NCBI GenBank assembly: GCA_039795875.1
Contig: JBDKKY010000009.1
Location: 1 to 31,773 of the forward strand
Source of the DNA: Candidatus Parcubacteria bacterium
GTDB lineage: Bacteria > Patescibacteriota > Minisyncoccia > Phycocordibacterales > CAIZLB01
Direction: 5' to 3'
Length of the DNA: 31,773 nt
In this document: piece after piece, positions 4,456 through 29,459 of the stretch
Numbering within the stretch: the stretch's first letter is position 1
Layout of the letters: each line of letters begins with the position of its first letter
Notes under the pieces: model-generated
The model's database searches: none
Told to the model about the DNA's origin: nothing
The model's input: only the letters and a program-made list of their open reading frames with translations
Made by a program: the position numbers and the translations under genes

Positions 4456-4474
4456 TTTACTCTCAAATACAGTG

Positions 4475-4506
4475 AAAATCCCGCTCGGCGGGATTTTTAT
4501 TTTTTA
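4475..4506 (+). terminator. Rho-independent terminator (aaaatcccgc-tcg-gcgggatttt followed by a T-run)
   Basis: A perfect 10-bp stem and 3-nt loop are followed by TTTTATTTTTT. It ends the murG/DUF378 transcription unit. Confidence 0.65.
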
Positions 4507-4542
4507 TACACAATCTGCACCTGCAAAAAGGAGAAAAAATCC

Positions 4543-7500
4543 TTGTCTACTAAAGATAAAATTGATATTATTAATACACGTATGAGAGTTTGCCGGACAT
4601 TAATAATTATCATACTTTTGTTGAGTACATTTGTTACTGCAGGTGCTATTTCTGCTGCTTCACAAAATGATGTAATTGCTGCCAACTCTGTAGCTGAAAG
4701 TGGTCTATGGAATCGAATGATCAATGCTTTGGCCACACCTTTCGTTCCTTTGTTTACGCCTCGCATACTTGTTGCCACAGCAGTCACACCATCTGCTCCG
4801 GTTGTGAAAGTTAACACTCCACGAAAAACAGTCGTGCCTCCTCGAGGTATCACACAGAATTTTCTATATGGAGTCTCACAAGCGCAATTACAAGTCGAAT
4901 TGAAAGCCTGGGGTGACAGTATCTTGGCCCGAGCTCTTGCTGGACAACGACAAGAGATTGATGCCCTGGCCCAAAGCTTGAATCGAAGTCTGAATCCTAT
5001 TGTTCAAAATGTTAACAATATCGTCAATAATACTGTTGTAAATAATACCGGTGGCAGCTTTGATTTCTCTGAGATTGTAAATGGTTTGGAGTACTCAGGT
5101 GGAGTATTGTCGACAACTGCCGGATATGAGATCCCTCTGAGCGCTTCAACAACTGGTTGGAACGCATTTTATAACGCACCCTCAAGTCGTATCATCGCAG
5201 GTGCAAATTGCGCATGGGTCAGTAACACCTTCAACTGTGTTAGTGCAAGTGGAAGTGCGACAACAACCATCAATGGTGCCAACGGTCCAACTTTCACATT
5301 TAATGCTGGTAGCAGTGGAACAGATTTTAGTATTGCTACAAGTGCCGGCACAGTTATTTTCAATATTCCGACCTCTTCAGCCTCTGTGCGGGGCTTATTG
5401 GCAGTCACTGATTTTTTGAGAATCCCTTTAACTGCTTCATCAACAAACTGGAATTCTTTTTACAATACACCGTCAACTCGGGTTACCGCAGGCGCAAATC
5501 TGGCCTGGGTTGGCAACACGTTGGGCTTTTCAGGGATTCTGCCAATTGCTAGTGGCGGAACAGGGACAACAACTGCCCCCACCTATGGCCAATTATTGAT
5601 GGGAAATATCGCTGGTTCTTATGATCTTGTTTCTACATCTTCACTTGGGTTTGGATCAGGAACGGTAGGGTCAGGTACAACTGGACAGACTTCATACTAC
5701 GCCGCGAACGGGACAACACTTTCTGCAACCTCAACAGTATTTATTGCCACAAACGGAAATGTTGGGATTGGTACAACAACACCTTCATACAAACTGGATC
5801 TCGGGTATACCAATAGTGGTGCCAATGTACCAGGATTGTATATTCATAATGATGCAGCAGCATCGGGTATTGAAGCGGCTATGTGGATTGCATCTCCCAA
5901 TTCTCAGCATGCATCTGATAGAAACTGGGGCTTTGTTATCAACCATACAGGGAATGGATATTTTGAGATATTGAATTCCGCCAGCGCTTCAACAAATCCG
6001 AGCGTAACAAGATTGACAATCAACTCAGCTGGTCAAGTAGGTGTCGGCTCAGCTCCTATAGCAGGACAGCAGATGACTATCTTGGGAGATGCATCATCTG
6101 ACGGTGATGGCGCATTGTATGTTAAAGGAGATGCCTCAAGTGGAAACTACTCAGCACAGTTACAAGTCGGATCTCGAACAGGATATACACCTTCAAGAAT
6201 TGAATTTGTTGATGGAAGTGGTGCTGGCACAGCAATGCTTGAGTCAAATAGAGGTGATGGAGTTTCGTCTGGTACAGGTGGATATCTGGCGCTGAAGACT
6301 GGTGCTACTGGTGGTACAGCTCCTTCAGAGAGGATGCGTATTACGTCGGCGGGATTGATAGGAATAGGTACCACCACTCCTAACAACAAATTGGATATCT
6401 ATTCAACCACTAAATCTGCCATCGGATTCTCTGGTGCAGCTGGTTCAACATATAAATGGACAATCGGTATGGACGTATCAAATGGTGGCCGATTCTCGAT
6501 CGCTTCATCAACCGCACTTGGAACTACAGATCGATTTGTGATTGATGGTAATGGAAATGTTGGAATCAACACTGCTAGTCCACTTGGCTCTGGCTCAACA
6601 ACGCTACACGTTGCGGGACCTGCTGCTGGTAGTGGTACCCAATATGGATCTTTAACTCTTTCAAATACAGGAAACACAGATGATGTTCTTGGAGCGATTG
6701 ACTTCTATGCGGGTAATACAAGTCAAGCATCTATACGAACTGTCGTGGTTAGTCCAGGATCTTCAGCAGACTTATATTTTATGACTCGAGGCTCTGGAAC
6801 ATTTTCAGAAAAAATGAGATTGACCAATGCTGGGAATCTTGGAGTAGGAACCTCTTCACCTGCATCCAAACTGGATGTCTGGGGCAATCTTCGTGTCGGA
6901 ACCTCATCTACTCCTATATTGATGGTTGACACCGCCACAGGACTTGTTGGTATAGGAACTTCTTCACCAGCATATCAACTGCATATTCGAAAAGATCAAA
7001 ATGCTGGTACAGTTTTGATGGTGCAAAACAACACCAGCGGTACTGCAGCATTCGCCCAGACGATGATGAATACTCCTTCTGATAGTCTGCAAGTTGGTAT
7101 TACTAGTGCGGGATACACTGTGACTGGTGGTGCAGAACTATTTGGCCAAAATACTGCGTACATGGTTGGTAGTGCCGCAGGTGGAGTGAACATGGTTGCC
7201 TCGAATGCGTCCGGTGTAATCAGATTTGGAACTGGCGGTTATGCAACTGCCAATGAAAGAATGCGTATCGATCAAAACGGACTTGTTGGTATAGGAACTT
7301 CTTCACCAGCATATCAACTACATATTCGAAAAGATCAAAATGCCGGTACTGCTTTGATGGTTCAAAACAACACTAGCGGATCGGCTGCTTTTGCGCAACT
7401 GATGATAAACACTCCTTCTGATAGTTTGCAGGTTGGTGTCGGTAGTGCTGCGTATACTCCATCTGGAGGAGCGGAACTATTTGGACAGAACACTGTTTGG

Positions 7501-8841
7501 ATGATTGGTAGTCCAGCAGGTGGAGTTAACCTCGTTGCCTCAAATGCATCCGGTGTGATCAGATTCGGAACAGGTGGTTATGCAGCTGGAAATGAGAGAA
7601 TGAAAATAACCTCTAGCGGCGACGTCGGTATCGGTACAACTTCCCCATACGCCAAGCTATCTGTTGTTGGGCAAGTTGTTGGTCAATATTTTACAGCCAC
7701 TTCAACAACAGCAACTTCAACCTTTGCAGGAGGGCTTGTGGCGGCGTCAAGTCTGTACGTCTTGCAGGGTGGAAATGTGGGTATCGGTACTACAACACCT
7801 ACTGGTAAGTTTGTCGTCCAAGGACCAACTAACAGCTCATCAGGTGGAGGATTGACGACCGTCACTCTTTTGGCAGGAAATGGTAGTGGAGTTAGTGCCT
7901 CAAACGGTCACAATGTGCTTATACAGGCGGGTAATGGTTCAACAGGAGGTTCAACAGGAGGAAATGGAGGATTTCTGGAATTTTATGGAGGTACCGGCGG
8001 CGATACTGTCACTGACGGGTCGGGTGGAAATATCTATATTGCTCCAGGTAACTCAAGCTCTGGAACTAAAGGCCATACTCTCCTCGGCATCATGAGAGAC
8101 GGATCAGTTGTCGGTAATGTTGGTATCGGTACAAGCACCCCTGGTCAAAAGTTAACAGTCGTCGGTAACGCCCAATTTACCGGAGTAACTTCTGGTACGT
8201 ATGCTAGCGATCTAAACATAACCGCCGATGGCACCCTGACTACAAGCGCATCTGATATTCGTCTGAAGGAAAATATTTTAGAGTTGGCTACTTCTACTCT
8301 TGATAAATTGATGCAGCTTAAAGCTTATAACTTTACATGGAAAACAGATCCTGATCATCGCCAAGACCTCGGTTTGATTGCCCAAGAAGTTGAATTTATT
8401 TTCCCCGAATTGGTATTCACTAACCGAACTGATGGATTTAAGGGAGTGAACTATTCTCGACTGGCAGTGTTGCTGTTAAAGGGAATTCAAGACCAACAGA
8501 TCAGACTTGATGATTTGAAAAAATATACAACAGTGCTTAATCTAAAAGAATTACATACCGAAAAACTCTGTGTCGGCTCAGCTGATGATGAGGTGTGTAT
8601 GACCAAAGATGATGTTCGGCGATTATTAAATGGAAACAGTAGTCCTGCTCCAACTGGTAACAATAATGGCGGCGGCGGGGTGACAACTCCAACGGAACCA
8701 GTTATAGAAGAGCCTGCACCAGAGCAAACTCCTCCGACTGAACCAACAGTAGAAGAAAATGTAGAGCCTCCTGCTCTTGTAGTAGATCCAGTTGAAGTCC
8801 CAATTGAATCACCACCAGAAACACTTGCTCCAACAGAATAA
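4543..8841 (+). CDS. giant tail-fibre-like surface protein with C-terminal intramolecular chaperone (peptidase S74) auto-processing domain
   Basis: A TTG start follows AAAGGAGAAAA by 9 nt. The protein has an N-terminal signal-anchor (TLIIIILLLSTFVTAGAISAA). A Gly/Thr/Ser-rich body contains about 8 repeats, each carrying a (N)VGIGTTxPxxKLDV motif, plus two WN(A/S)FYN(A/T)PS(S/T)R(I/V)(I/T)AGAN(C/L)AWV(S/G)NT modules (about 5150-5230 and 5440-5525); the second is followed by LPIASGGTGTTTAP. The C-terminal SDIRLKENILEL...YNFTWKTD...GLIAQEVEFIFPELVF is the phage tail-spike/endosialidase chaperone domain. A Pro/Glu/Thr-rich acidic tail follows. Confidence 0.8.
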   Translation: MSTKDKIDIINTRMRVCRTLIIIILLLSTFVTAGAISAASQNDVIAANSVAESGLWNRMINALATPFVPLFTPRILVATAVTPSAPVVKVNTPRKTVVPPRGITQNFLYGVSQAQLQVELKAWGDSILARALAGQRQEIDALAQSLNRSLNPIVQNVNNIVNNTVVNNTGGSFDFSEIVNGLEYSGGVLSTTAGYEIPLSASTTGWNAFYNAPSSRIIAGANCAWVSNTFNCVSASGSATTTINGANGPTFTFNAGSSGTDFSIATSAGTVIFNIPTSSASVRGLLAVTDFLRIPLTASSTNWNSFYNTPSTRVTAGANLAWVGNTLGFSGILPIASGGTGTTTAPTYGQLLMGNIAGSYDLVSTSSLGFGSGTVGSGTTGQTSYYAANGTTLSATSTVFIATNGNVGIGTTTPSYKLDLGYTNSGANVPGLYIHNDAAASGIEAAMWIASPNSQHASDRNWGFVINHTGNGYFEILNSASASTNPSVTRLTINSAGQVGVGSAPIAGQQMTILGDASSDGDGALYVKGDASSGNYSAQLQVGSRTGYTPSRIEFVDGSGAGTAMLESNRGDGVSSGTGGYLALKTGATGGTAPSERMRITSAGLIGIGTTTPNNKLDIYSTTKSAIGFSGAAGSTYKWTIGMDVSNGGRFSIASSTALGTTDRFVIDGNGNVGINTASPLGSGSTTLHVAGPAAGSGTQYGSLTLSNTGNTDDVLGAIDFYAGNTSQASIRTVVVSPGSSADLYFMTRGSGTFSEKMRLTNAGNLGVGTSSPASKLDVWGNLRVGTSSTPILMVDTATGLVGIGTSSPAYQLHIRKDQNAGTVLMVQNNTSGTAAFAQTMMNTPSDSLQVGITSAGYTVTGGAELFGQNTAYMVGSAAGGVNMVASNASGVIRFGTGGYATANERMRIDQNGLVGIGTSSPAYQLHIRKDQNAGTALMVQNNTSGSAAFAQLMINTPSDSLQVGVGSAAYTPSGGAELFGQNTVWMIGSPAGGVNLVASNASGVIRFGTGGYAAGNERMKITSSGDVGIGTTSPYAKLSVVGQVVGQYFTATSTTATSTFAGGLVAASSLYVLQGGNVGIGTTTPTGKFVVQGPTNSSSGGGLTTVTLLAGNGSGVSASNGHNVLIQAGNGSTGGSTGGNGGFLEFYGGTGGDTVTDGSGGNIYIAPGNSSSGTKGHTLLGIMRDGSVVGNVGIGTSTPGQKLTVVGNAQFTGVTSGTYASDLNITADGTLTTSASDIRLKENILELATSTLDKLMQLKAYNFTWKTDPDHRQDLGLIAQEVEFIFPELVFTNRTDGFKGVNYSRLAVLLLKGIQDQQIRLDDLKKYTTVLNLKELHTEKLCVGSADDEVCMTKDDVRRLLNGNSSPAPTGNNNGGGGVTTPTEPVIEEPAPEQTPPTEPTVEENVEPPALVVDPVEVPIESPPETLAPTE
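6943..7620 (+). repeat. in-frame tandem duplication, 2 x 339 bp (113-aa units, about 85 % identical; first about 65 nt nearly identical)
   Basis: The string cttgttggtataggaacttcttcaccagcatatcaact occurs at 6943 and again at 7282. The translated units LVGIGTSSPAYQLHIRKDQNAGT..GVIRFGTGGYA..NERM align along their full length. Confidence 0.75.
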
Positions 8842-8881
8842 AAGTATTGATTATTAGAATAAAAGATGAGATCATTAGCAC

Positions 8882-9397
8882 ATGGCCAGTACAAAAACTA
8901 TTGAAAAAAATATATCCACTGCACAAGAAGAAATAATAACATCAGCTCCACGACCGCGCCGCCGAGGATTGGCGGTAAAGTTTTCAGGATTATTATTTAT
9001 TGCAGTTATCGTTCTAGGTGTACTATATCTACAACAAAGAACACAGATACGACGATTGACTGATCCTGTTGCTCAAACAGAATATGCCGAGCAACAAGTC
9101 AAAAAGGTGATTGAAGATTTAAAGCAGTATGTTGTGATACCCGATGAAGAGCAATTGCAACTATTGGGGGTGATCAATGACGCGGAGAGCTTGAAGAAGG
9201 ATCAAGCTTTTTATGCAAACGTTGAACGAGGTGACTATGTATTCCTATTTACAAAAACATCTCGAGCTCTTATCTGGAGACCTAGTACAAAGAAGATTGT
9301 AAACTTCGGTATTGCAGACACGACTCAAGCGCAACAACAAGGAAACATTCAAAAGTCTACTCCAACAGCAGCGGCTAGTTCTACTCAAGATAACTAG
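8882..9397 (+). CDS. hypothetical single-pass membrane protein
   Basis: The 171-aa protein has a basic N-terminus (RPRRRG) followed by one TM helix (LLFIAVIVLGVLYL). I recognise no domain. Confidence 0.45.
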   Translation: MASTKTIEKNISTAQEEIITSAPRPRRRGLAVKFSGLLFIAVIVLGVLYLQQRTQIRRLTDPVAQTEYAEQQVKKVIEDLKQYVVIPDEEQLQLLGVINDAESLKKDQAFYANVERGDYVFLFTKTSRALIWRPSTKKIVNFGIADTTQAQQQGNIQKSTPTAAASSTQDN

Positions 9398-20720: not shown

Positions 20721-21143
20721 ATGCGGAGATCATACACACCAGATAAGTTTAAAGTAATAGTCAAACGATCAAATGCTGGCCTAGGACTATTTGCAGGAGA
20801 TGATATTCCTAAAGGAACTTGTATCATTGAATACAAAGGGCGACAGATCAAAGGACAAGAAGAGTATACTAGTACGAGCAAATACCTTTTTGGAGTACAC
20901 GATCGTTTGACTATAGACGGACGAGAACGGTCAAATACAGCGCGGTATATCAACCACTCATGTCGAGCCAATTGCGAACCGATCAGCTATAAAGCTCGAG
21001 CCTATATATTTGCCAAAAGAAAAATTATGGCTGGTGAAGAATTGACATATGATTATGGAAAGGAATATTGGAATGAACATATCAAGCCTTTGGGCTGTCG
21101 ATGTGTGAAGTGCGTTGAGAGGAAGGCTACTGTTAAGGAGTAG
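20721..21143 (+). CDS. SET-domain protein lysine methyltransferase (minimal, vSET-like size)
   Basis: The 140-aa protein has a SET core with ARYINHSCRANCE (NHSCxPN motif) and ELTYDYG, followed by a Cys-rich post-SET segment (CRCVKC). Confidence 0.75.
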   Translation: MRRSYTPDKFKVIVKRSNAGLGLFAGDDIPKGTCIIEYKGRQIKGQEEYTSTSKYLFGVHDRLTIDGRERSNTARYINHSCRANCEPISYKARAYIFAKRKIMAGEELTYDYGKEYWNEHIKPLGCRCVKCVERKATVKE

Positions 21144-26309: not shown

Positions 26310-26338
26310 AAAATACCCTTATAAACAAAGGGTATTTT
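26310..26338 (+). terminator. Rho-independent terminator (aaaataccctt-ataaaca-aagggtatttt)
   Basis: A perfect 11-bp stem and 7-nt loop lie 42 nt after the stop of the TrmB-like gene. Confidence 0.6.
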
Positions 26339-26398
26339 ACGTATACGCCTTTTGTATATTTTGAATTGTAATCTTATATTTTTTTCTGAAAAAATATT

Positions 26399-26433
26399 TT
26401 GACATATTGTACTTTGTTGCAATACTAATCTCA
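26399..26433 (+). promoter_or_regulatory. candidate sigma70 promoter TTGACA-16-AATACT upstream of the SPFH gene
   Basis: A consensus -35 hexamer sits in AT-rich DNA about 135 nt upstream of the GC-rich gene. Confidence 0.35.
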
Positions 26434-26567
26434 GAACGAACTTTGACAGCGAGTGGTATGTAAGACAACTGAACAGAATTCGCGACAGCAATGCATCCGG
26501 ATACGTAGATGGATGCAACGCTGTTTCGAATCATCGACTCAGTAAACCCAAATACAACACGCACTAT

Positions 26568-27875
26568 ATGACTAAATCTAGAATCGTTCTGGCCCTTATC
26601 CTGATCGGGATAATTGCCTTCATCGAGTTCGTTATACTCACTCCTACCGATCAACTCATCAGCCCCAAGATGGGGATCAATCAGGTCAACGGTGATGATC
26701 TTGACGGCTTGAAGCTGCGAAGCTTGCAAGAAGCCAAGAACACCGTCACGTTGATCTGTGGTACGCTCTACGGGCTTGTCGCCCTGTGGCTGTTCAAGCC
26801 GCTGATTTTGCGGCTGTGGAAATCTGGCAACAAAGCACCAGTCACCAATCTGATTCTGATTGGTTTGGCTTCGACCACGATGGTCAGCTGTATGAAGCCG
26901 TACGACAAACCTGAGTACGTCGAGATCAACAACAATGAAACCGCTTTCGTGTTTCCGCTTGAGGGTGACACGAAAGAGCAGGCCAAGTTCCAGAGCAAGG
27001 AACACCTGCAGCAAGCCAAAGTGGCTGCTAAACGTATTCAGATCACGCACCGGTGGAATCAAACCGCCCGTGGCGAAAGCAACGGCGAGTGGATACCTTC
27101 CATTCGTGTGATCAAAGTTGACCGCTCGCCAGTGACTCGTAACTGGCAAGCTGCGGCCGGTGGTGCCCAAACCAAAGGACAAGAGAAAGATACGGCCATC
27201 TGGGTCGAGTCTGCCGACAGCGTCGGCTTCTCCATGGGCTTTGCCTGTACCGCGTATGTGACGGAAGAAGATTCCGCTACGTTTCTGTATTGGTATCCGA
27301 GTGGTAGCCTGGCTATCGTGATGGACACCGAGATCAGGGCTCGCATACAGCAAGGTGCTGCCGAGGTCTCTGCTAAGTACCCGCTGGATATTCTTCGCGG
27401 GAAAAAGCAGGAGATCATAGACAGTATTCGTACTGATGTGACGGTGTTCTTCAAAGAGCGCGGTATCACGATCACCACTGTTGGTATGTTCGGCGGTATG
27501 ACGTACGAAAACACGAAGATACAGGAGGCCATAGACTCCGTCTTCATTGCTCAGCAGGAAAAAGAAAAAGCCAAGGCGGCTTTCGAGGCTCAGGAAAAGC
27601 TGAACGCTACTGTCACGCTGGCGGCGCAAGCTCAAGCTGACAAAAAACGCATCGAGGCTGAAGGTGAAGCCAAAGCCATCGATGCGGTGCAAAAAGCGTT
27701 GCAACAAGCTGGACCTCTGTACATTCAGCGCGAGTTCATTACGCGCTGGGACGGCAAGTTCCCTGAGTACTACCTGGGAGGCGGTGCTGGTGGCCCCTCT
27801 CTGCTCCTCGGAGTTCCTGCTCCGACACCAGGCAAGGTGGAACACTCCACTGAGCCTACCCCTACTAAGAACTGA
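26568..27875 (+). CDS. SPFH/band-7 (HflK/C-, flotillin-like) membrane protein, GC-rich
   Basis: It has an N-terminal TM helix and an SPFH-like core. A Glu/Ala/Lys coiled-coil follows (QQEKEKAKAAFEAQEKLNATVTLAAQAQADKKRIEAEGEAKAI), as in HflK/HflC. The Gly/Pro-rich C-terminus is GC-rich. Confidence 0.6.
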   Translation: MTKSRIVLALILIGIIAFIEFVILTPTDQLISPKMGINQVNGDDLDGLKLRSLQEAKNTVTLICGTLYGLVALWLFKPLILRLWKSGNKAPVTNLILIGLASTTMVSCMKPYDKPEYVEINNNETAFVFPLEGDTKEQAKFQSKEHLQQAKVAAKRIQITHRWNQTARGESNGEWIPSIRVIKVDRSPVTRNWQAAAGGAQTKGQEKDTAIWVESADSVGFSMGFACTAYVTEEDSATFLYWYPSGSLAIVMDTEIRARIQQGAAEVSAKYPLDILRGKKQEIIDSIRTDVTVFFKERGITITTVGMFGGMTYENTKIQEAIDSVFIAQQEKEKAKAAFEAQEKLNATVTLAAQAQADKKRIEAEGEAKAIDAVQKALQQAGPLYIQREFITRWDGKFPEYYLGGGAGGPSLLLGVPAPTPGKVEHSTEPTPTKN

Positions 27876-27911
27876 GGTTCTCTGAGGGAGATGCATTGAG
27901 TGCATCATCGG

Positions 27912-27946
27912 GCGTTCGGTCAGCAATGACCGGACGCTTTTTTATT
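27912..27946 (+). terminator. Rho-independent terminator with GCAA tetraloop
   Basis: The 11-bp stem gcgttcggtca / tgaccggacgc (one G-U pair) and GCAA loop are followed by TTTTTTATTT. Confidence 0.7.
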
Positions 27947-27958
27947 TCCGTAAACATA

Positions 27959-28435
27959 CTATTCTCCATCAAATGCCTTCTGCAATGCCGATACATCAAT
28001 CTTTACCATCTTCATCATCGCCTGCATCACTCGGGCTGATTGTTCAGGTGTGCCCTTACTCATCAGCTCAGGCAATTGTTGTGGTACAACTTGCCATGAC
28101 AGGCCGAATTTATCTTTTAACCAACCACATTGTGATTCTTGTCCACCGTCGGCTAAAAGTTTTTCCCAATAATAATCAACCTCAGTTTGGTCTTTGCAAT
28201 CGACCATAAAAGAGATAGATTCGTTAAATTTGAACATCGGGCCGGCATTCATAGCTGTGAACTTTGATCCGTCAAGTTCGAAAGAAACAATTTGTACTGT
28301 TTGTTTTTCATCAGGACCAGTATTTTCCATTTCCTCTTGTCCTAGGATTTTGGAATTGGGAAAAATAGAAGTATATAGCTTTGCTGCCTCTAGTGCCTGC
28401 GTGTCGTACCAAAGGAAAGGGGTTACTTTTGTCAT
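27959..28435 (-). CDS. PhnB-like / 3-demethylubiquinone-9 3-methyltransferase-domain (VOC-fold) protein
   Basis: MTKVTPFLWYDTQALEAAKLYTSIFPNSKI ... DCKDQTEVDYYWEKL ... CGWLKDKFGLSWQV is the typical PF06983 pattern. Confidence 0.7.
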   Translation of the reverse strand: MTKVTPFLWYDTQALEAAKLYTSIFPNSKILGQEEMENTGPDEKQTVQIVSFELDGSKFTAMNAGPMFKFNESISFMVDCKDQTEVDYYWEKLLADGGQESQCGWLKDKFGLSWQVVPQQLPELMSKGTPEQSARVMQAMMKMVKIDVSALQKAFDGE

Positions 28436-29060: not shown

Positions 29061-29459
29061 GTGTCATTTTATAAGATAAATGGTATGAATATATTCACAA
29101 TCTGGAACACCTACAAAGAAAACCTAGATAAGAGATTATCTGTGCCTGTATTTCACTCTAGAGAAATCTGGTGGTGTGCACTCGGTAAAAATATTGGTCA
29201 CGAGCAGGATGGGAAAAATGAATTATTTGAGAGACCTGTGTTGATTTTACAAAAGTTTAGTAAAGAAGTCTGTGTGGTTATACCTATTACATCTACTGAT
29301 AAAGAAGGTAAATATTATTATGAATTAGAAATGTCTGACTCTAGAGTGATATTAAGTCAGATACGGTTGATTAGTGCAAAGAGATTATTGCGCTTTATTA
29401 AAACTATATCCCGAACTGAATTTAATATAATTAAACAAAAAGTGAAAGATCTTCTGTAA
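29061..29459 (+). CDS. PemK/MazF-family endoribonuclease toxin-like protein
   Basis: REIWWCALGKNIGHEQDGKNELFERPVLIL ... VCVVIPITST aligns with Kid/PemK GEIWLVSLDPTAGHEQQGTRPVLIV ... LPVVVPVTSG, including the GHEQ motif. It has an N-terminal extension of about 30 aa. Confidence 0.6.
   Translation: MSFYKINGMNIFTIWNTYKENLDKRLSVPVFHSREIWWCALGKNIGHEQDGKNELFERPVLILQKFSKEVCVVIPITSTDKEGKYYYELEMSDSRVILSQIRLISAKRLLRFIKTISRTEFNIIKQKVKDLL

What the first reader, a model, noticed from the sequence alone, without database searches (positions are those of the whole stretch)
4543..8841. Giant self-cleaving, phage-tail-fibre-like surface protein immediately downstream of the dcw cell-wall genes
A 1432-aa protein combines several phage-fibre features.

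(i) It has an N-terminal signal-anchor.

(ii) It carries about 8 Gly/Thr/Ser-rich repeats, each with a 'NVGIGTTTPxxKLDV' motif. An 'LPIASGGTGTTTAP' element follows the second WN(A/S)FYN.. module. Both are hallmarks of phage tail-fibre shafts.

(iii) It ends in a C-terminal intramolecular-chaperone / peptidase S74 domain (…TSA|SDIRLKENILEL…YNFTWKTD…GLIAQEVEFIFPELVF…). In endosialidases and T5 pb1 this domain trimerises the fibre and then excises itself at the Ser of the SD(I/x)RLK motif, predicted here near nt 8251-8256.

Unusually, the chaperone domain is followed by an about 70-aa Pro/Glu/Thr-rich acidic tail (PTEPVIEEPAPEQTPPTEP…). It also contains two Cys residues (LCVGSADDEVCM).

The gene is chromosomal. 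It sits between murG/DUF378 and ordinary housekeeping-type genes, with its own SD-TTG start and no phage structural genes nearby. This points to a domesticated fibre used as a cellular adhesin or S-layer-like appendage, as might suit an epibiotic or host-attached lifestyle.
Basis: partly seen in the sequence, partly recalled or inferred. Interest (0 to 1): 0.7.

Follow-up and report, generated by a model that had tools for sequence, protein, structure and literature searches.

The report
Phage-fibre-like surface protein of a Parcubacterium
A tiny, probably host-attached bacterium (Candidatus Parcubacteria) carries in its own chromosome a 1,432-residue protein built like a phage tail fibre with a predicted self-cleaving folding domain. 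It most likely forms a long surface fibre like the prey-binding fibres of Bdellovibrio, and it is one of thousands of undescribed relatives.

Summary
ORF 4543-8841 (+) encodes a 1,432-aa protein with four parts:
- an N-terminal hydrophobic export signal;
- a Gly/Ser/Thr-rich shaft with 8 copies of xVGIGTxxPxxKL;
- a Pfam Peptidase_S74 intramolecular-chaperone domain (58 bits), with the Ser1237/Lys1242 pair invariant and a confident S74 fold;
- a further ~100 aa, made of a two-Cys beta-hairpin plus an acidic Pro-rich tail.

It is not in a prophage. No phage structural gene was found in the 31.8-kb window. The locus murG-DUF378-fibre-orf171-S30AE is syntenic in three other Patescibacteria contigs. 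Two further relatives have the same locus without the fibre.

The best solved-structure match of the shaft is Bdellovibrio Bd2133, a "MAT" adhesive trimeric fibre. The most likely reading is therefore a Sec-exported, S74-matured trimeric surface fibre of a candidate-phyla-radiation (CPR) bacterium, probably an adhesin.

New details found here:
- The fibre ends are conserved but the shaft length varies (822, 1,432 and 1,618 aa) and the shaft is mosaic.
- The hairpin-plus-tail module defines at least 3,684 protein clusters, and 49 of 53 sampled members carry S74. No match in isolated phages reached it.
- Some paralogues carry a cytoplasmic HTH domain.

Function, cleavage and trimer formation are inferred, not shown. 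Verdict: a new variant of a known kind, of moderate interest.

The parts
4471..4510 (+). Intrinsic-terminator-like hairpin plus T-run ending the upstream DUF378 gene. It implies that the fibre gene is transcribed on its own.
   Evidence: 14-pair stem, T-run; sequence. Equivalent hairpins sit at the same place in the orthologous loci L001 and L023.
4526..4584 (+). Translation-start region. A promoter-like TTGTCT-17-TATTAT lies at 4543-4571.
   Evidence: The orthologues P0002 and P0003 begin MRSLNK/MRVLKK, which corresponds by eye to the window's M14 (MRVCRT). The start is therefore ambiguous (1,432 or 1,419 aa).
4543..8841 (+). Fibre precursor gene: 1,432 aa plus the stop codon.
4597..4659 (+). 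N-terminal hydrophobic segment, aa 19-39 (TLIIIILLLSTFVTAGAISAA). It is a Sec signal, either a membrane anchor or cleaved after AISA.
   Evidence: Hydropathy scan; it is the only such segment in the protein. HTH-bearing paralogues place a TM helix at the equivalent point, which argues for N-in/C-out topology.
4702..4761 (+). Juxtamembrane motif GLWNRMINALATPFVPLFTP (aa 54-73). Its role is unknown.
   Evidence: Related motifs occur in P0003, P0008 (twice) and P0046.
5122..5649 (+). Proximal fibre modules: two GY.IPL.AST..WN.FYN..S.R..AG modules (aa 194-231 and 292-328), and the LPIASGGTGTTTAP..GQLLMGN module (aa 333-369).
   Evidence: This region is 31-63% identical to the orthologues P0002 and P0003. 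The modules recur in other CPR giants. Invariant columns are listed.
5758..8154 (+). Repetitive shaft carrying the 8 xVGIGTxxPxxKL loops (aa 406-1204). It is mosaic and not orthologous between syntenic genomes.
   Evidence: It is homologous to Bd2133 (8OND, aa 901-1102, E 1e-16) and to 8OML, and to PHROG tail-fibre families.
6940..7602 (+). Tandem duplication of a 339-nt (113-aa) shaft module. The copies are 82% identical in nt and 93/113 identical in aa.
   Evidence: Both copies best match a single region of the contig-truncated L027 fibre.
8113..8250 (+). Distal tip of the predicted mature fibre (aa 1191-1236), ending at the predicted scissile bond A1236|S1237. It is the most conserved part of the protein.
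   Evidence: It is 80-87% identical to P0002, P0003 and the L027 fibre.
8251..8526 (+). Peptidase_S74 / C-terminal intramolecular chaperone domain (aa 1237-1328). The catalytic candidates are S1237 (nt 8251-8253) and K1242 (nt 8266-8268).
8527..8637 (+). Two-Cys beta-hairpin plus short helix (aa 1329-1365; Cys1343 at nt 8569-8571, Cys1352 at nt 8596-8598). No Pfam family matched it in the scans run.
   Evidence: AF2 predicts strands at 1341-1344 and 1351-1354 and a helix at 1355-1362, with block-mean pLDDT 83-86. Both Cys are invariant in 30 and in 53 sequences. The profile finds 3,684 clusters, and 49 of 53 sampled members carry S74.
8638..8838 (+). Acidic Pro/Glu/Thr-rich tail (aa 1366-1432), predicted to be disordered.
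   Evidence: Composition. AF2 gives low confidence and no secondary structure here. Equivalent low-complexity tails of 17-176 aa follow the hairpin in homologues.
8882..9397 (+). Neighbouring 171-aa single-pass membrane protein. It is a conserved resident of the locus. It is probably not a dedicated partner of the fibre.
   Evidence: It is 65% identical in L001. A 28%-identical homologue lies directly upstream of another S74 fibre in L002 and L003. It is also present in the fibre-less loci L025 and L026.

Best explanation
This is a chromosomal gene of a Candidatus Parcubacteria (Patescibacteria/CPR) bacterium. It encodes the precursor of a long, probably homotrimeric, cell-surface fibre of the phage-tail-fibre / Bdellovibrio-MAT type.

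Proposed mechanism, with the status of each step:
1. The gene is transcribed on its own, after the DUF378 terminator. This is shown only as sequence signals.
2. The N-terminal hydrophobic segment sends the chain through Sec, and the N-terminus stays at or in the cytoplasmic membrane. This is inferred.
3. Outside the cell, three C-terminal S74 domains associate and template folding of the triple beta-helical shaft. This needs no ATP. It is inferred from what is established for K1F endosialidase, T5 pb1 and Bd3182.
4. Once the tip is correctly folded, Ser1237, activated by Lys1242, cleaves the Ala1236-Ser1237 bond. This releases a 196-aa fragment made of the chaperone, the Cys hairpin and the acidic tail. 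This is inferred.
5. The mature fibre of about 1,200 residues would be roughly 80-90 nm long. That figure is an extrapolation from Bd3182, whose full-length model is about 550 A for 922 aa. The fibre would project from the cell with the conserved tip (aa 1191-1236) exposed, and would bind a surface structure of a host or partner cell. This last step is speculative.

Shaft length and composition evolve quickly, by module duplication and exchange. The gene is dispensable in some close relatives.
For: **S74 domain.**
- Pfam hit of 58.4 bits against a cut-off of 22.
- S1237, D1238 and K1242 are invariant.
- A confident AF2 domain whose best PDB matches are intramolecular chaperones.

**Shaft.**
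- Homologous to the solved Bdellovibrio MAT fibres 8OND and 8OML, and to phage long tail fibre 6F45.
- Homologous to PHROG tail-fibre families.
- MAT proteins are surface-displayed trimers. S74 self-cleavage of Bd3182 was shown biochemically (PMC10769870).
- In T5 pb1 the Ser/Lys(+5) mechanism is described (PMC4690869).

**Export signal.**. HTH_17-TM-fibre paralogues fix the topology as N-in/C-out.

**Cellular rather than viral.**
- No phage genes in the window.
- Normal GC content.
- Synteny in L001, L023 and L027.
- Housekeeping context of other CPR S74 giants.
- No close relative on viral contigs.
- All 16 reference-genome relatives are Patescibacteria, and two MAGs have two loci each.

**Fast, modular evolution.**
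- Flanking genes are 54-84% identical to L001, but the fibre centre is not orthologous.
- Orthologue lengths are 822, 1,432 and 1,618 aa.
- There is an in-gene 339-nt tandem duplication.
- L025 and L026 lack the fibre. Pairwise MurG identities place them among the fibre-bearing genomes, which suggests loss rather than repeated gain.
Against: - There is no experimental evidence for export, trimerisation, cleavage, surface location or binding.
- Only monomer structure prediction was possible. The N-terminal 430 aa gave an unusable model (pLDDT 36.7).
- The sequence AISA|AS could be a signal-peptidase site. If it is cut, no anchor is evident.
- There is no Arg in the 45 residues before the scissile bond. 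T5 pb1 uses Arg1250 of a neighbouring chain, 14 residues upstream, as the folding sensor. The cleavage chemistry may therefore differ, or be absent.
- The S74 domain is not at the very C-terminus, unlike in phages.
- The tip next to S74 is the most conserved part. This is the opposite of the variable receptor-binding tips of phage fibres and MATs, so a role in host-specific recognition is not obviously supported.
- No ligand-binding or enzymatic domain was detected.
Confidence: 0.7

Rival explanations
1. The gene is a remnant tail fibre of a prophage, tailocin or extracellular contractile injection system, stranded in the chromosome and not used by the cell.
For: The shaft and S74 domain hit phage tail-fibre PHROGs. 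623 phage records match the S74 domain.
Against: - No capsid, terminase, portal, tail, baseplate, sheath or integrase gene was found in 31.8 kb.
- No tRNA gene that could mark an integration site.
- GC content is like the flanks.
- The ORF is intact at 4.3 kb and has its own export signal, which a virion protein does not need.
- The locus is syntenic in genomes whose flanking proteins are only 54-84% identical.
- No close relative on IMG/VR contigs.
Confidence: 0.03
2. The protein is a structural envelope fibre, such as an S-layer-like coat, a spacer or a biofilm matrix element. It has no specific host-recognition role.
For: - The tip and the S74 domain are as conserved as housekeeping genes, while only shaft length and composition vary.
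- No lectin or enzyme domain was detected.
- The gene lies next to cell-wall synthesis genes.
Against: - The gene is absent from the same locus in two close relatives, so it is not essential envelope architecture.
- The closest characterised relatives are adhesins.
- Family members carry pectate-lyase, GDSL-lipase, YadA-head and Ig-like domains, which are typical of interaction proteins.
Confidence: 0.15
3. The fibre is released, not cell-bound. The signal peptide is cleaved after AISA and the trimer is secreted, for example as a soluble binding or bacteriocin-like factor.
For: - There is a possible signal-peptidase motif AISA|AS.
- There is no LPXTG-type or second TM anchor.
- No recognised wall-binding domain was detected.
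Against: - Paralogues with a cytoplasmic HTH_17 domain before the TM helix must remain membrane-inserted.
- The orthologues' hydrophobic segments lack an AXA site.
- MAT fibres are retained on the cell by their N-terminal region.
Confidence: 0.1
4. The S74 domain folds the fibre but does not cut. The hairpin and acidic tail remain attached and form the functional distal end.
For: - The domain is followed by a conserved extra module, unlike in phages.
- No Arg 'sensor' is visible upstream of the scissile bond.
Against: - Ser and Lys(+5) are invariant across 26 homologues, including all that carry the hairpin.
- The same hairpin and tail also follow a different autoproteolytic chaperone, Peptidase_G2. 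This fits a role linked to the cleaved pro-region.
Confidence: 0.07

Closest known systems
Bdellovibrio bacteriovorus MAT (mosaic adhesive trimer) fibres, S74 subgroup (e.g. Bd3182; shaft structure Bd2133, PDB 8OND) - Caulton et al. 2024, PMC10769870
   Same: - Chromosomal, non-phage genes of a bacterium that attaches to other bacteria.
- An export signal, then a long Gly/Ser/Thr-rich shaft with repeated ..VGIG/N-T-x-x-P-x-x-K-L loops.
- Direct sequence homology: E 1e-16 to 8OND and 1.9e-4 to 8OML.
- A C-terminal S74 domain with the SDxxxK motif.
- Mosaic, modular evolution, and several paralogues per genome in some relatives' MAGs.
   Different: - The host is a monoderm-like CPR bacterium, not a diderm predator.
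- The conserved ~130-aa beta-rich MAT N-terminal domain could not be recognised. Here there is a TM/signal segment followed by a region that is weakly predicted to be helical.
- The S74 domain is followed by a Cys hairpin and an acidic tail, a feature not mentioned in the parts of that paper I read.
- The tip is conserved rather than swapped.
- CPR is not among the lineages listed in that paper's Supplementary Table S3.
Phage tailspikes and tail fibres with a C-terminal intramolecular chaperone domain: K1F endosialidase (3GW6), GA-1 neck appendage (3GUD), T5 pb1 (PMC4690869), T4-like long tail fibre tip (6F45)
   Same: - The S74 fold and the Ser/Lys(+5) pair.
- The chaperone is placed directly after a fibre or beta-helix.
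- The shaft hits PHROG tail-fibre families.
   Different: - There is no virion and no tail or baseplate genes.
- The N-terminal virion-attachment domain is replaced by a Sec signal or anchor.
- About 100 extra residues follow the chaperone. None of the listed best places among the 623 matching phage records extended beyond aa ~1338, and none covered at least 80% of the query.
Eukaryotic MyRF (myelin regulatory factor) ICA domain (7DC3)
   Same: It is the best structural match of the S74 domain (Foldseek E 8.6e-6, TM 0.61-0.68 relative to the target). It is also a cellular, membrane-associated protein that uses the phage chaperone domain for trimerisation-dependent self-cleavage.
   Different: In MyRF the domain is N-terminal to the TM helix (from my own knowledge of the protein) and releases a DNA-binding trimer. 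Here it is extracytoplasmic and C-terminal. The window protein has no DNA-binding domain, although paralogues carry HTH_17.
Trimeric autotransporter adhesins (YadA family)
   Same: The likely function is analogous: long, repetitive, trimeric surface fibres. 4 of 53 sampled proteins carrying the hairpin module contain YadA_head repeats.
   Different: There is no beta-barrel translocator. The secretion and trimerisation logic differs. No homology to the window protein was detected.

Membership tests
Peptidase S74 / C-terminal intramolecular chaperone domain (Pfam PF13884) | Profile-HMM match above the curated threshold | tested here: met
   58.4 bits against a cut-off of 22, E 8.8e-16, aa 1237-1291, model positions 1-57 of 58.
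Peptidase S74 / C-terminal intramolecular chaperone domain (Pfam PF13884) | Catalytic Ser with Lys five residues downstream (S-D-x-x-x-K) | tested here: met
   S1237-D-I-R-L-K1242. S, D and K are invariant in 26 aligned homologues. The same spacing is seen in T5 pb1, Ser1264/Lys1269, and in the MAT SDxxxK motif.
Peptidase S74 / C-terminal intramolecular chaperone domain (Pfam PF13884) | Chaperone fold (alpha/beta part plus a long helix that forms the trimeric coiled coil) | tested here: met
   The AF2 monomer has pLDDT 87-97 across the domain. Foldseek gives 7DC3 (E 8.6e-6), 3GW6 and 3GUD as the top hits.
Peptidase S74 / C-terminal intramolecular chaperone domain (Pfam PF13884) | Arg from a neighbouring chain upstream of the scissile bond, acting as a folding sensor or oxyanion-hole residue (T5 pb1 Arg1250) | tested here: inconclusive
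   There is no Arg in aa 1191-1236. Equivalence of positions cannot be established without a trimer structure.
Peptidase S74 / C-terminal intramolecular chaperone domain (Pfam PF13884) | Trimerisation-dependent autoproteolysis and release of the domain | not testable with these tools
   This needs multimer modelling or biochemistry (wild type versus S1237A).
Bdellovibrio-type MAT fibre family (PMC10769870) | Shaft homologous to the MAT beta-helix with repeated capping-loop motif | tested here: met
   phmmer against 8OND (Bd2133) gives E 1.1e-16 over aa 901-1102, and against 8OML E 1.9e-4. There are 8 motif copies. The published consensus is written V-G-G/N-pi-x-x-P-x-x-x-L. The correspondence rests on the direct alignment, not on the literal pattern.
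Bdellovibrio-type MAT fibre family (PMC10769870) | Signal peptide followed by a conserved ~130-aa beta-rich N-terminal domain | tested here: inconclusive
   The signal is present. No MAT N-terminal sequence or structure was available for comparison. The AF2 model of aa 1-430 is unreliable (pLDDT 36.7) and, if anything, helical at aa 41-64 and 113-162. Membership in the strict sense is therefore not claimed.
Bdellovibrio-type MAT fibre family (PMC10769870) | C-terminal S74 domain or an alternative adhesive tip | tested here: met
   The S74 domain is followed by an extra module that is not described for MATs.
Bdellovibrio-type MAT fibre family (PMC10769870) | Surface display as a homotrimer; role in binding other cells | not testable with these tools
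Phage virion tail fibre / tailspike | Encoded within a phage, prophage or tailocin structural module | tested here: not met
   No phage structural genes in the window. Chromosomal synteny is conserved.
Phage virion tail fibre / tailspike | N-terminal domain that docks to the tail or baseplate, with no secretion signal | tested here: not met
   The N-terminus is a Sec-type hydrophobic signal.

The most novel reading that the evidence does not exclude
The window protein represents a very large class found, so far as sampled, in Patescibacteria, and undescribed in the literature I could search. Its members are exported trimeric fibres whose self-cleaving chaperone (S74, occasionally Peptidase_G2) carries an additional two-Cys beta-hairpin and an acidic or low-complexity tail. 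On this reading these fibres are the host-recognition and attachment organelles of episymbiotic Patescibacteria. Shaft remodelling and gene gain or loss at conserved loci would tune host range. The hairpin and tail would be a new functional part, for example a foldon-like registration clamp or an envelope-transit device for folding outside a cell that lacks a periplasm. The HTH_17-TM-fibre paralogues would couple fibre engagement to transcription.
Probability: 0.25. Interest if true: 0.75.

Novelty: new variant of a known kind. Interest (0 to 1): 0.5.

Why it matters
How ultra-small CPR/Patescibacteria find and hold on to their host cells is largely open. To my knowledge, type IV pili are the main characterised factor.

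This gene shows that a Parcubacterium encodes a fibre related to those that Bdellovibrio displays on its surface to recognise prey. The family is large: at least 3,684 clusters at 50% identity carry the distinctive C-terminal module. Named members are labelled only 'hypothetical protein' or 'tail fiber domain-containing protein'.

The family gives concrete, testable candidates for host-range determinants. It is also a natural example of ATP-independent, self-cleaving chaperones used to fold long fibres outside a cell that has no outer membrane. Finally, it supplies a new conserved appendage (hairpin plus tail) whose role in S74 and G2 chaperone function can be tested in vitro.

Tried and rejected
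- **Prophage, tailocin or eCIS context.** Pfam and PHROG scans of essentially every ORF of at least 130 aa in the window found no structural phage gene. There are no tRNAs and no GC anomaly at the gene. Rejected.
- **JGI's shorter gene model** (1,335 aa, starting at V98). It removes the export signal and a region conserved with the orthologues. Rejected.
- **orf171 (8882-9397) as a dedicated fibre partner.** It looked attractive because a homologue flanks another S74 fibre in a different gene order. However, it persists in the fibre-less loci L025 and L026 and was not found next to the other fibres examined. Downgraded to 'resident of the locus'.
- **NCBIfam.** No family matched the fibre.
- **Word-indexed search with the hairpin profile.** It gave only 6 short fragments and was uninformative. 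It was replaced by the exhaustive HMMER scan.
- **IMG/VR scans.** The scan with the whole protein found no relatives.
- **AF2 of the N-terminal 430 aa.** pLDDT was 36.7, which is unusable, so no fold search was run on it.
- **Literature.** Searches for Patescibacteria/CPR/Saccharibacteria combined with S74, endosialidase, tail fiber, MAT or beta-helix adhesin found nothing describing this family.
- **Juxtamembrane motif (PFVPLFTP) as a family-wide anchor signature.** It occurs in only 4 of 127 proteins. Minor.

Full report

Yes. ORF 4543..8841 on the + strand is the longest ORF of the window, at 1,432 aa. The same 1,432-aa product is deposited at NCBI as MEN9604692.1, 'hypothetical protein RJB39_377 [Candidatus Parcubacteria bacterium]'. 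JGI called a shorter 1,335-aa version.

The upstream 71-aa gene is DUF378. It ends in a terminator-like hairpin at 4471-4510. An AAAGGAG box lies 10 nt before TTG 4543.

The orthologues begin MRVLKK/MRSLNK, which corresponds to the window's M14 (ATG 4582). The start is therefore either TTG 4543 or ATG 4582. Either way the N-terminus is a short basic stretch followed by the only strongly hydrophobic segment of the protein, aa 19-39.

The pattern xVGIGTxxPxxKL occurs 8 times, and 0 times in 2,000 shuffles. It is also visible as a DNA repeat family.

**2. The S74 domain**

- Pfam Peptidase_S74 matches aa 1237-1291 at 58.4 bits, against a gathering score of 22.
- In an alignment of 26 C-terminal regions, S1237, D1238, L1241, K1242, G1277 and A1280 are invariant.
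- Ser with Lys at +5 is the arrangement described for T5 pb1 (Ser1264/Lys1269; PMC4690869). It is also the SDxxxK motif of the Bdellovibrio S74 fibres (PMC10769870).
- An AF2 model of aa 1150-1432 is confident over the domain (pLDDT 87-97).
- Its only significant PDB matches are the MyRF ICA domain (7DC3), the K1F endosialidase chaperone (3GW6) and 3GUD.

One open point remains. T5 pb1 uses an Arg of a neighbouring chain 14 residues upstream of the scissile bond. No Arg exists in the 45 residues upstream here.

**3. What the shaft is**

PHROG profiles annotated as tail fibre match aa ~890-1300 (1.7e-44 and 7.6e-36).

Among solved structures, the best sequence match is not a phage protein. It is Bd2133 (8OND, E 1.1e-16, aa 901-1102), followed by a phage long-tail-fibre tip with its chaperone (6F45) and by a second entry (8OML) labelled 'cell wall surface anchor family protein'.

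Bd2133 is one of 21 'MAT' (mosaic adhesive trimer) fibres of Bdellovibrio bacteriovorus. Thirteen of them end in S74. They are displayed on the predator's surface. Self-cleavage was shown biochemically for Bd3182 and is blocked in S782A (PMC10769870).

The repeated motif in the window protein aligns residue for residue with the 'GNLGLGTAAPTSALHV' and 'GNVGIGATAPTAKLEV' loops of Bd2133. By my reading, these are that paper's capping loops.

**4. Cellular, not viral**

- Pfam and PHROG scans of the rest of the window find a D-Ala-D-Ala carboxypeptidase-like gene, mraY, ftsW and murG.
- They also find a ribosome hibernation factor, a two-component system, oligopeptidase F, cytidylate kinase, NUDIX, SET, TspO, an SPFH protein and a MazF toxin.
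- They find no capsid, terminase, portal, tail or baseplate gene.
- There are no tRNAs.
- The GC content of the gene (0.41-0.47) is like the rest of the window.

The strongest evidence is synteny. Three other contigs carry murG-DUF378-S74 fibre-orf171-(DUF5671)-S30AE-response regulator-...-kinase-peptidase M3:
- L001, from GCA_964450605.1, with a fibre of 1,618 aa;
- L023, with a fibre of 822 aa;
- L027, with a fibre of at least 1,115 aa, cut at the contig end.

Flanking proteins are 54-84% identical between the window and L001.

Two further relatives, L025 (GCA_964367655.1) and L026, have the same locus with DUF378 followed directly by the orf171 homologue and no fibre. MurG identities are window-L001 73%, window-L025 78% and L001-L025 82%. 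These pairwise values place the fibre-less genomes among the fibre-bearing ones. A single loss is therefore the simplest history, although no tree was built. The gene is dispensable.

Other S74 giants of CPR genomes lie next to ribosomal proteins, SecY, ATP synthase or tRNA synthetases. By contrast, one non-CPR-sized genome has its homologue beside an integrase and a toxin-antitoxin pair.

All 16 relatives found in the species-representative genome collection are Patescibacteria MAGs, and two MAGs have two loci each. No close relative was found on IMG/VR viral contigs.

**5. How the gene evolves**

I compared the protein segment by segment with its syntenic orthologues.

| Segment | Identity to orthologues |
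|---|---|
| Last shaft repeat, the tip (aa 1191-1236) | 80-87% |
| S74 domain | 69-78% |
| Proximal region (aa 101-420) | 31-63% |
| Central shaft | repeat-level similarity only |

- Some shaft segments have their best matches in unrelated paralogues. For example, aa 601-790 is 56% identical to P0013 and 47.5% to P0010.
- Inside the gene, a 339-nt module is tandemly duplicated (82% nt identity, 93/113 aa). Both copies best match the same single region of the contig-truncated L027 fibre.
- So both ends are held constant while the shaft is lengthened, shortened and exchanged.
- Phage receptor-binding proteins and MAT tips behave differently. In them, the distal end is the variable part.

**6. 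The C-terminal extension**

After the chaperone's long helix, AF2 predicts a beta-hairpin (strands at aa 1341-1344 and 1351-1354, each containing one Cys) and a short helix (aa 1355-1362), with block-mean pLDDT 83-86. A disordered tail follows. The tail has 16 Pro, 13 acidic and 0 basic residues in 67 aa.

- A regular-expression survey found the LC[VI]...C[VI]T..QL..LL hairpin, followed by a 17-176-aa low-complexity tail, in 36 of the 119 other top homologues.
- The two Cys are the only invariant columns.
- An exhaustive HMMER scan of 1.84 billion cluster representatives with this 54-position profile finds 3,684 proteins at E <= 1e-3 and 230 at E <= 1e-10. In nearly all listed matches the module lies near the C-terminus.
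- Of 53 such proteins, chosen only by this profile and by length, 49 carry Peptidase_S74 and one carries Peptidase_G2. The latter is the other autoproteolytic fibre chaperone.
- Two window homologues also combine G2 with the same hairpin and tail.
- Named members are 'tail fiber domain-containing protein [Candidatus Paceibacterota bacterium]'.
- Among 623 isolated-phage records that match the S74 domain, none of the listed matches extends beyond query aa ~1338, and none covers at least 80% of the query.

The extension is therefore not an oddity of this gene. It is the signature of a large, cellular, CPR-associated subfamily. No Pfam family matched it in the scans I ran.

Its role is unknown. 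Its position after a coiled coil and its hairpin shape suggest a foldon-like registration element. This is my inference and has not been tested.

**7. Most likely mechanism**

1. Sec export through the N-terminal signal.
2. Retention of the N-terminus at the membrane. Paralogues with a cytoplasmic HTH_17 domain before the TM helix show that the family can be N-in/C-out.
3. Extracellular trimerisation nucleated by the S74 domains.
4. Self-cleavage at A1236|S1237, releasing a 196-aa fragment.
5. A mature fibre of about 1,200 residues. Scaling from the ~550 A model of the 922-aa Bd3182 gives roughly 80-90 nm. This is only an extrapolation.

By analogy with MATs, and given the episymbiotic lifestyle typical of CPR bacteria, the fibre probably mediates attachment to another cell. 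The conserved tip and the lack of any recognisable binding domain keep this at moderate confidence.

**8. Novelty**

- Cellular S74 fibres for binding other bacteria are known from Bdellovibrio. That paper lists relatives in several predatory lineages and in Omnitrophica, but not in CPR.
- I found no paper connecting Patescibacteria/CPR with S74 or tail-fibre-like surface proteins.
- Databases label family members 'hypothetical' or 'tail fiber domain-containing protein'.

I therefore rate this as a new variant of a known kind:
- the same fibre-plus-chaperone principle;
- a different envelope context;
- a different N-terminal end;
- an additional conserved C-terminal module;
- a documented presence/absence and length polymorphism at a conserved chromosomal locus.

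Noticed in passing
Homologues P0010, P0027, P0032, P0054 and P0105 (not in the window): Some paralogous CPR fibre proteins begin with one or two cytoplasmic HTH_17 (excisionase/MerR-like) domains, followed by a TM helix and then the giant extracellular fibre, often ending in S74. This is a ToxR-like architecture. It suggests that fibre engagement could be coupled to DNA binding.
   Followed up: partly
Homologues P0009, P0012, P0016, P0019, P0020, P0023, P0048, P0094 and P0116 (not in the window): At least two other kinds of post-S74 extension exist in CPR fibres, each again followed by a Pro/Ser/Thr-rich tail. One is a 'G[IV]xLYD...C......G.C' two-Cys module. The other is a beta domain with a very weak H-type-lectin match (E 0.085).
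   Followed up: partly
window 8882-9397 (+): A 171-aa single-pass membrane protein with no Pfam family. It is conserved downstream of the fibre in the syntenic loci. A 28%-identical homologue lies directly upstream of a different S74 fibre (after secDF) in L002 and L003. It is also present where the fibre is absent (L025, L026). Only 9 homologues were found, all of them close.
   Followed up: yes
L025 9001-9603 and L026 9001-9612, compared with window 4456-8881: There is a clean presence/absence polymorphism of the 4.3-kb fibre gene between DUF378 and orf171. The fibre-less loci have only a ~90-nt spacer there.
   Followed up: yes
window 20721-21143 (+): A 140-aa SET-domain protein (PF00856, E 1.2e-23), a lysine-methyltransferase fold, in a CPR genome. 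It is conserved in the related contigs L025 and L026.
   Followed up: no
window 26337-27926 (-) and 26568-27875 (+); GC 0.53 at 27001-28000: This is the most GC-rich kilobase of the window. Long ORFs overlap on both strands. The + strand ORF has an SPFH/Band 7 domain and a PHROG 'lipoprotein' hit. The 529-aa - strand ORF has no hits and is probably spurious.
   Followed up: partly
window 29061-29459 (+): A PemK/MazF-type toxin (E 3.5e-15). The partner antitoxin was not identified.
   Followed up: no
Homologue P0029 (Candidatus Woesearchaeota, DPANN archaeon): A 923-aa archaeal protein is built from the same NVGIGTTxPxxKL repeat shaft (E 3e-36 to the window protein), with no S74 domain recorded. 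The fibre module is thus shared with the other major group of episymbiotic ultra-small prokaryotes.
   Followed up: no
window 4543-4584: A promoter-like TTGTCT-17-TATTAT with a TG extension overlaps the annotated TTG start and ends 10 nt before ATG 4582. The orthologous loci have a TATAAT-like box at a similar distance from their ATG, by my reading of the sequence. The mRNA may therefore be nearly leaderless and start at M14.
   Followed up: partly
L025 18320-end and L026 18461-end: The fibre-less relatives carry another giant gene (1,514 and 1,649 aa; Laminin_G_3, fn3, pectate-lyase-like beta-helix and PG_binding domains) a few kb downstream in the same neighbourhood. It may be an alternative surface protein.
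   Followed up: no
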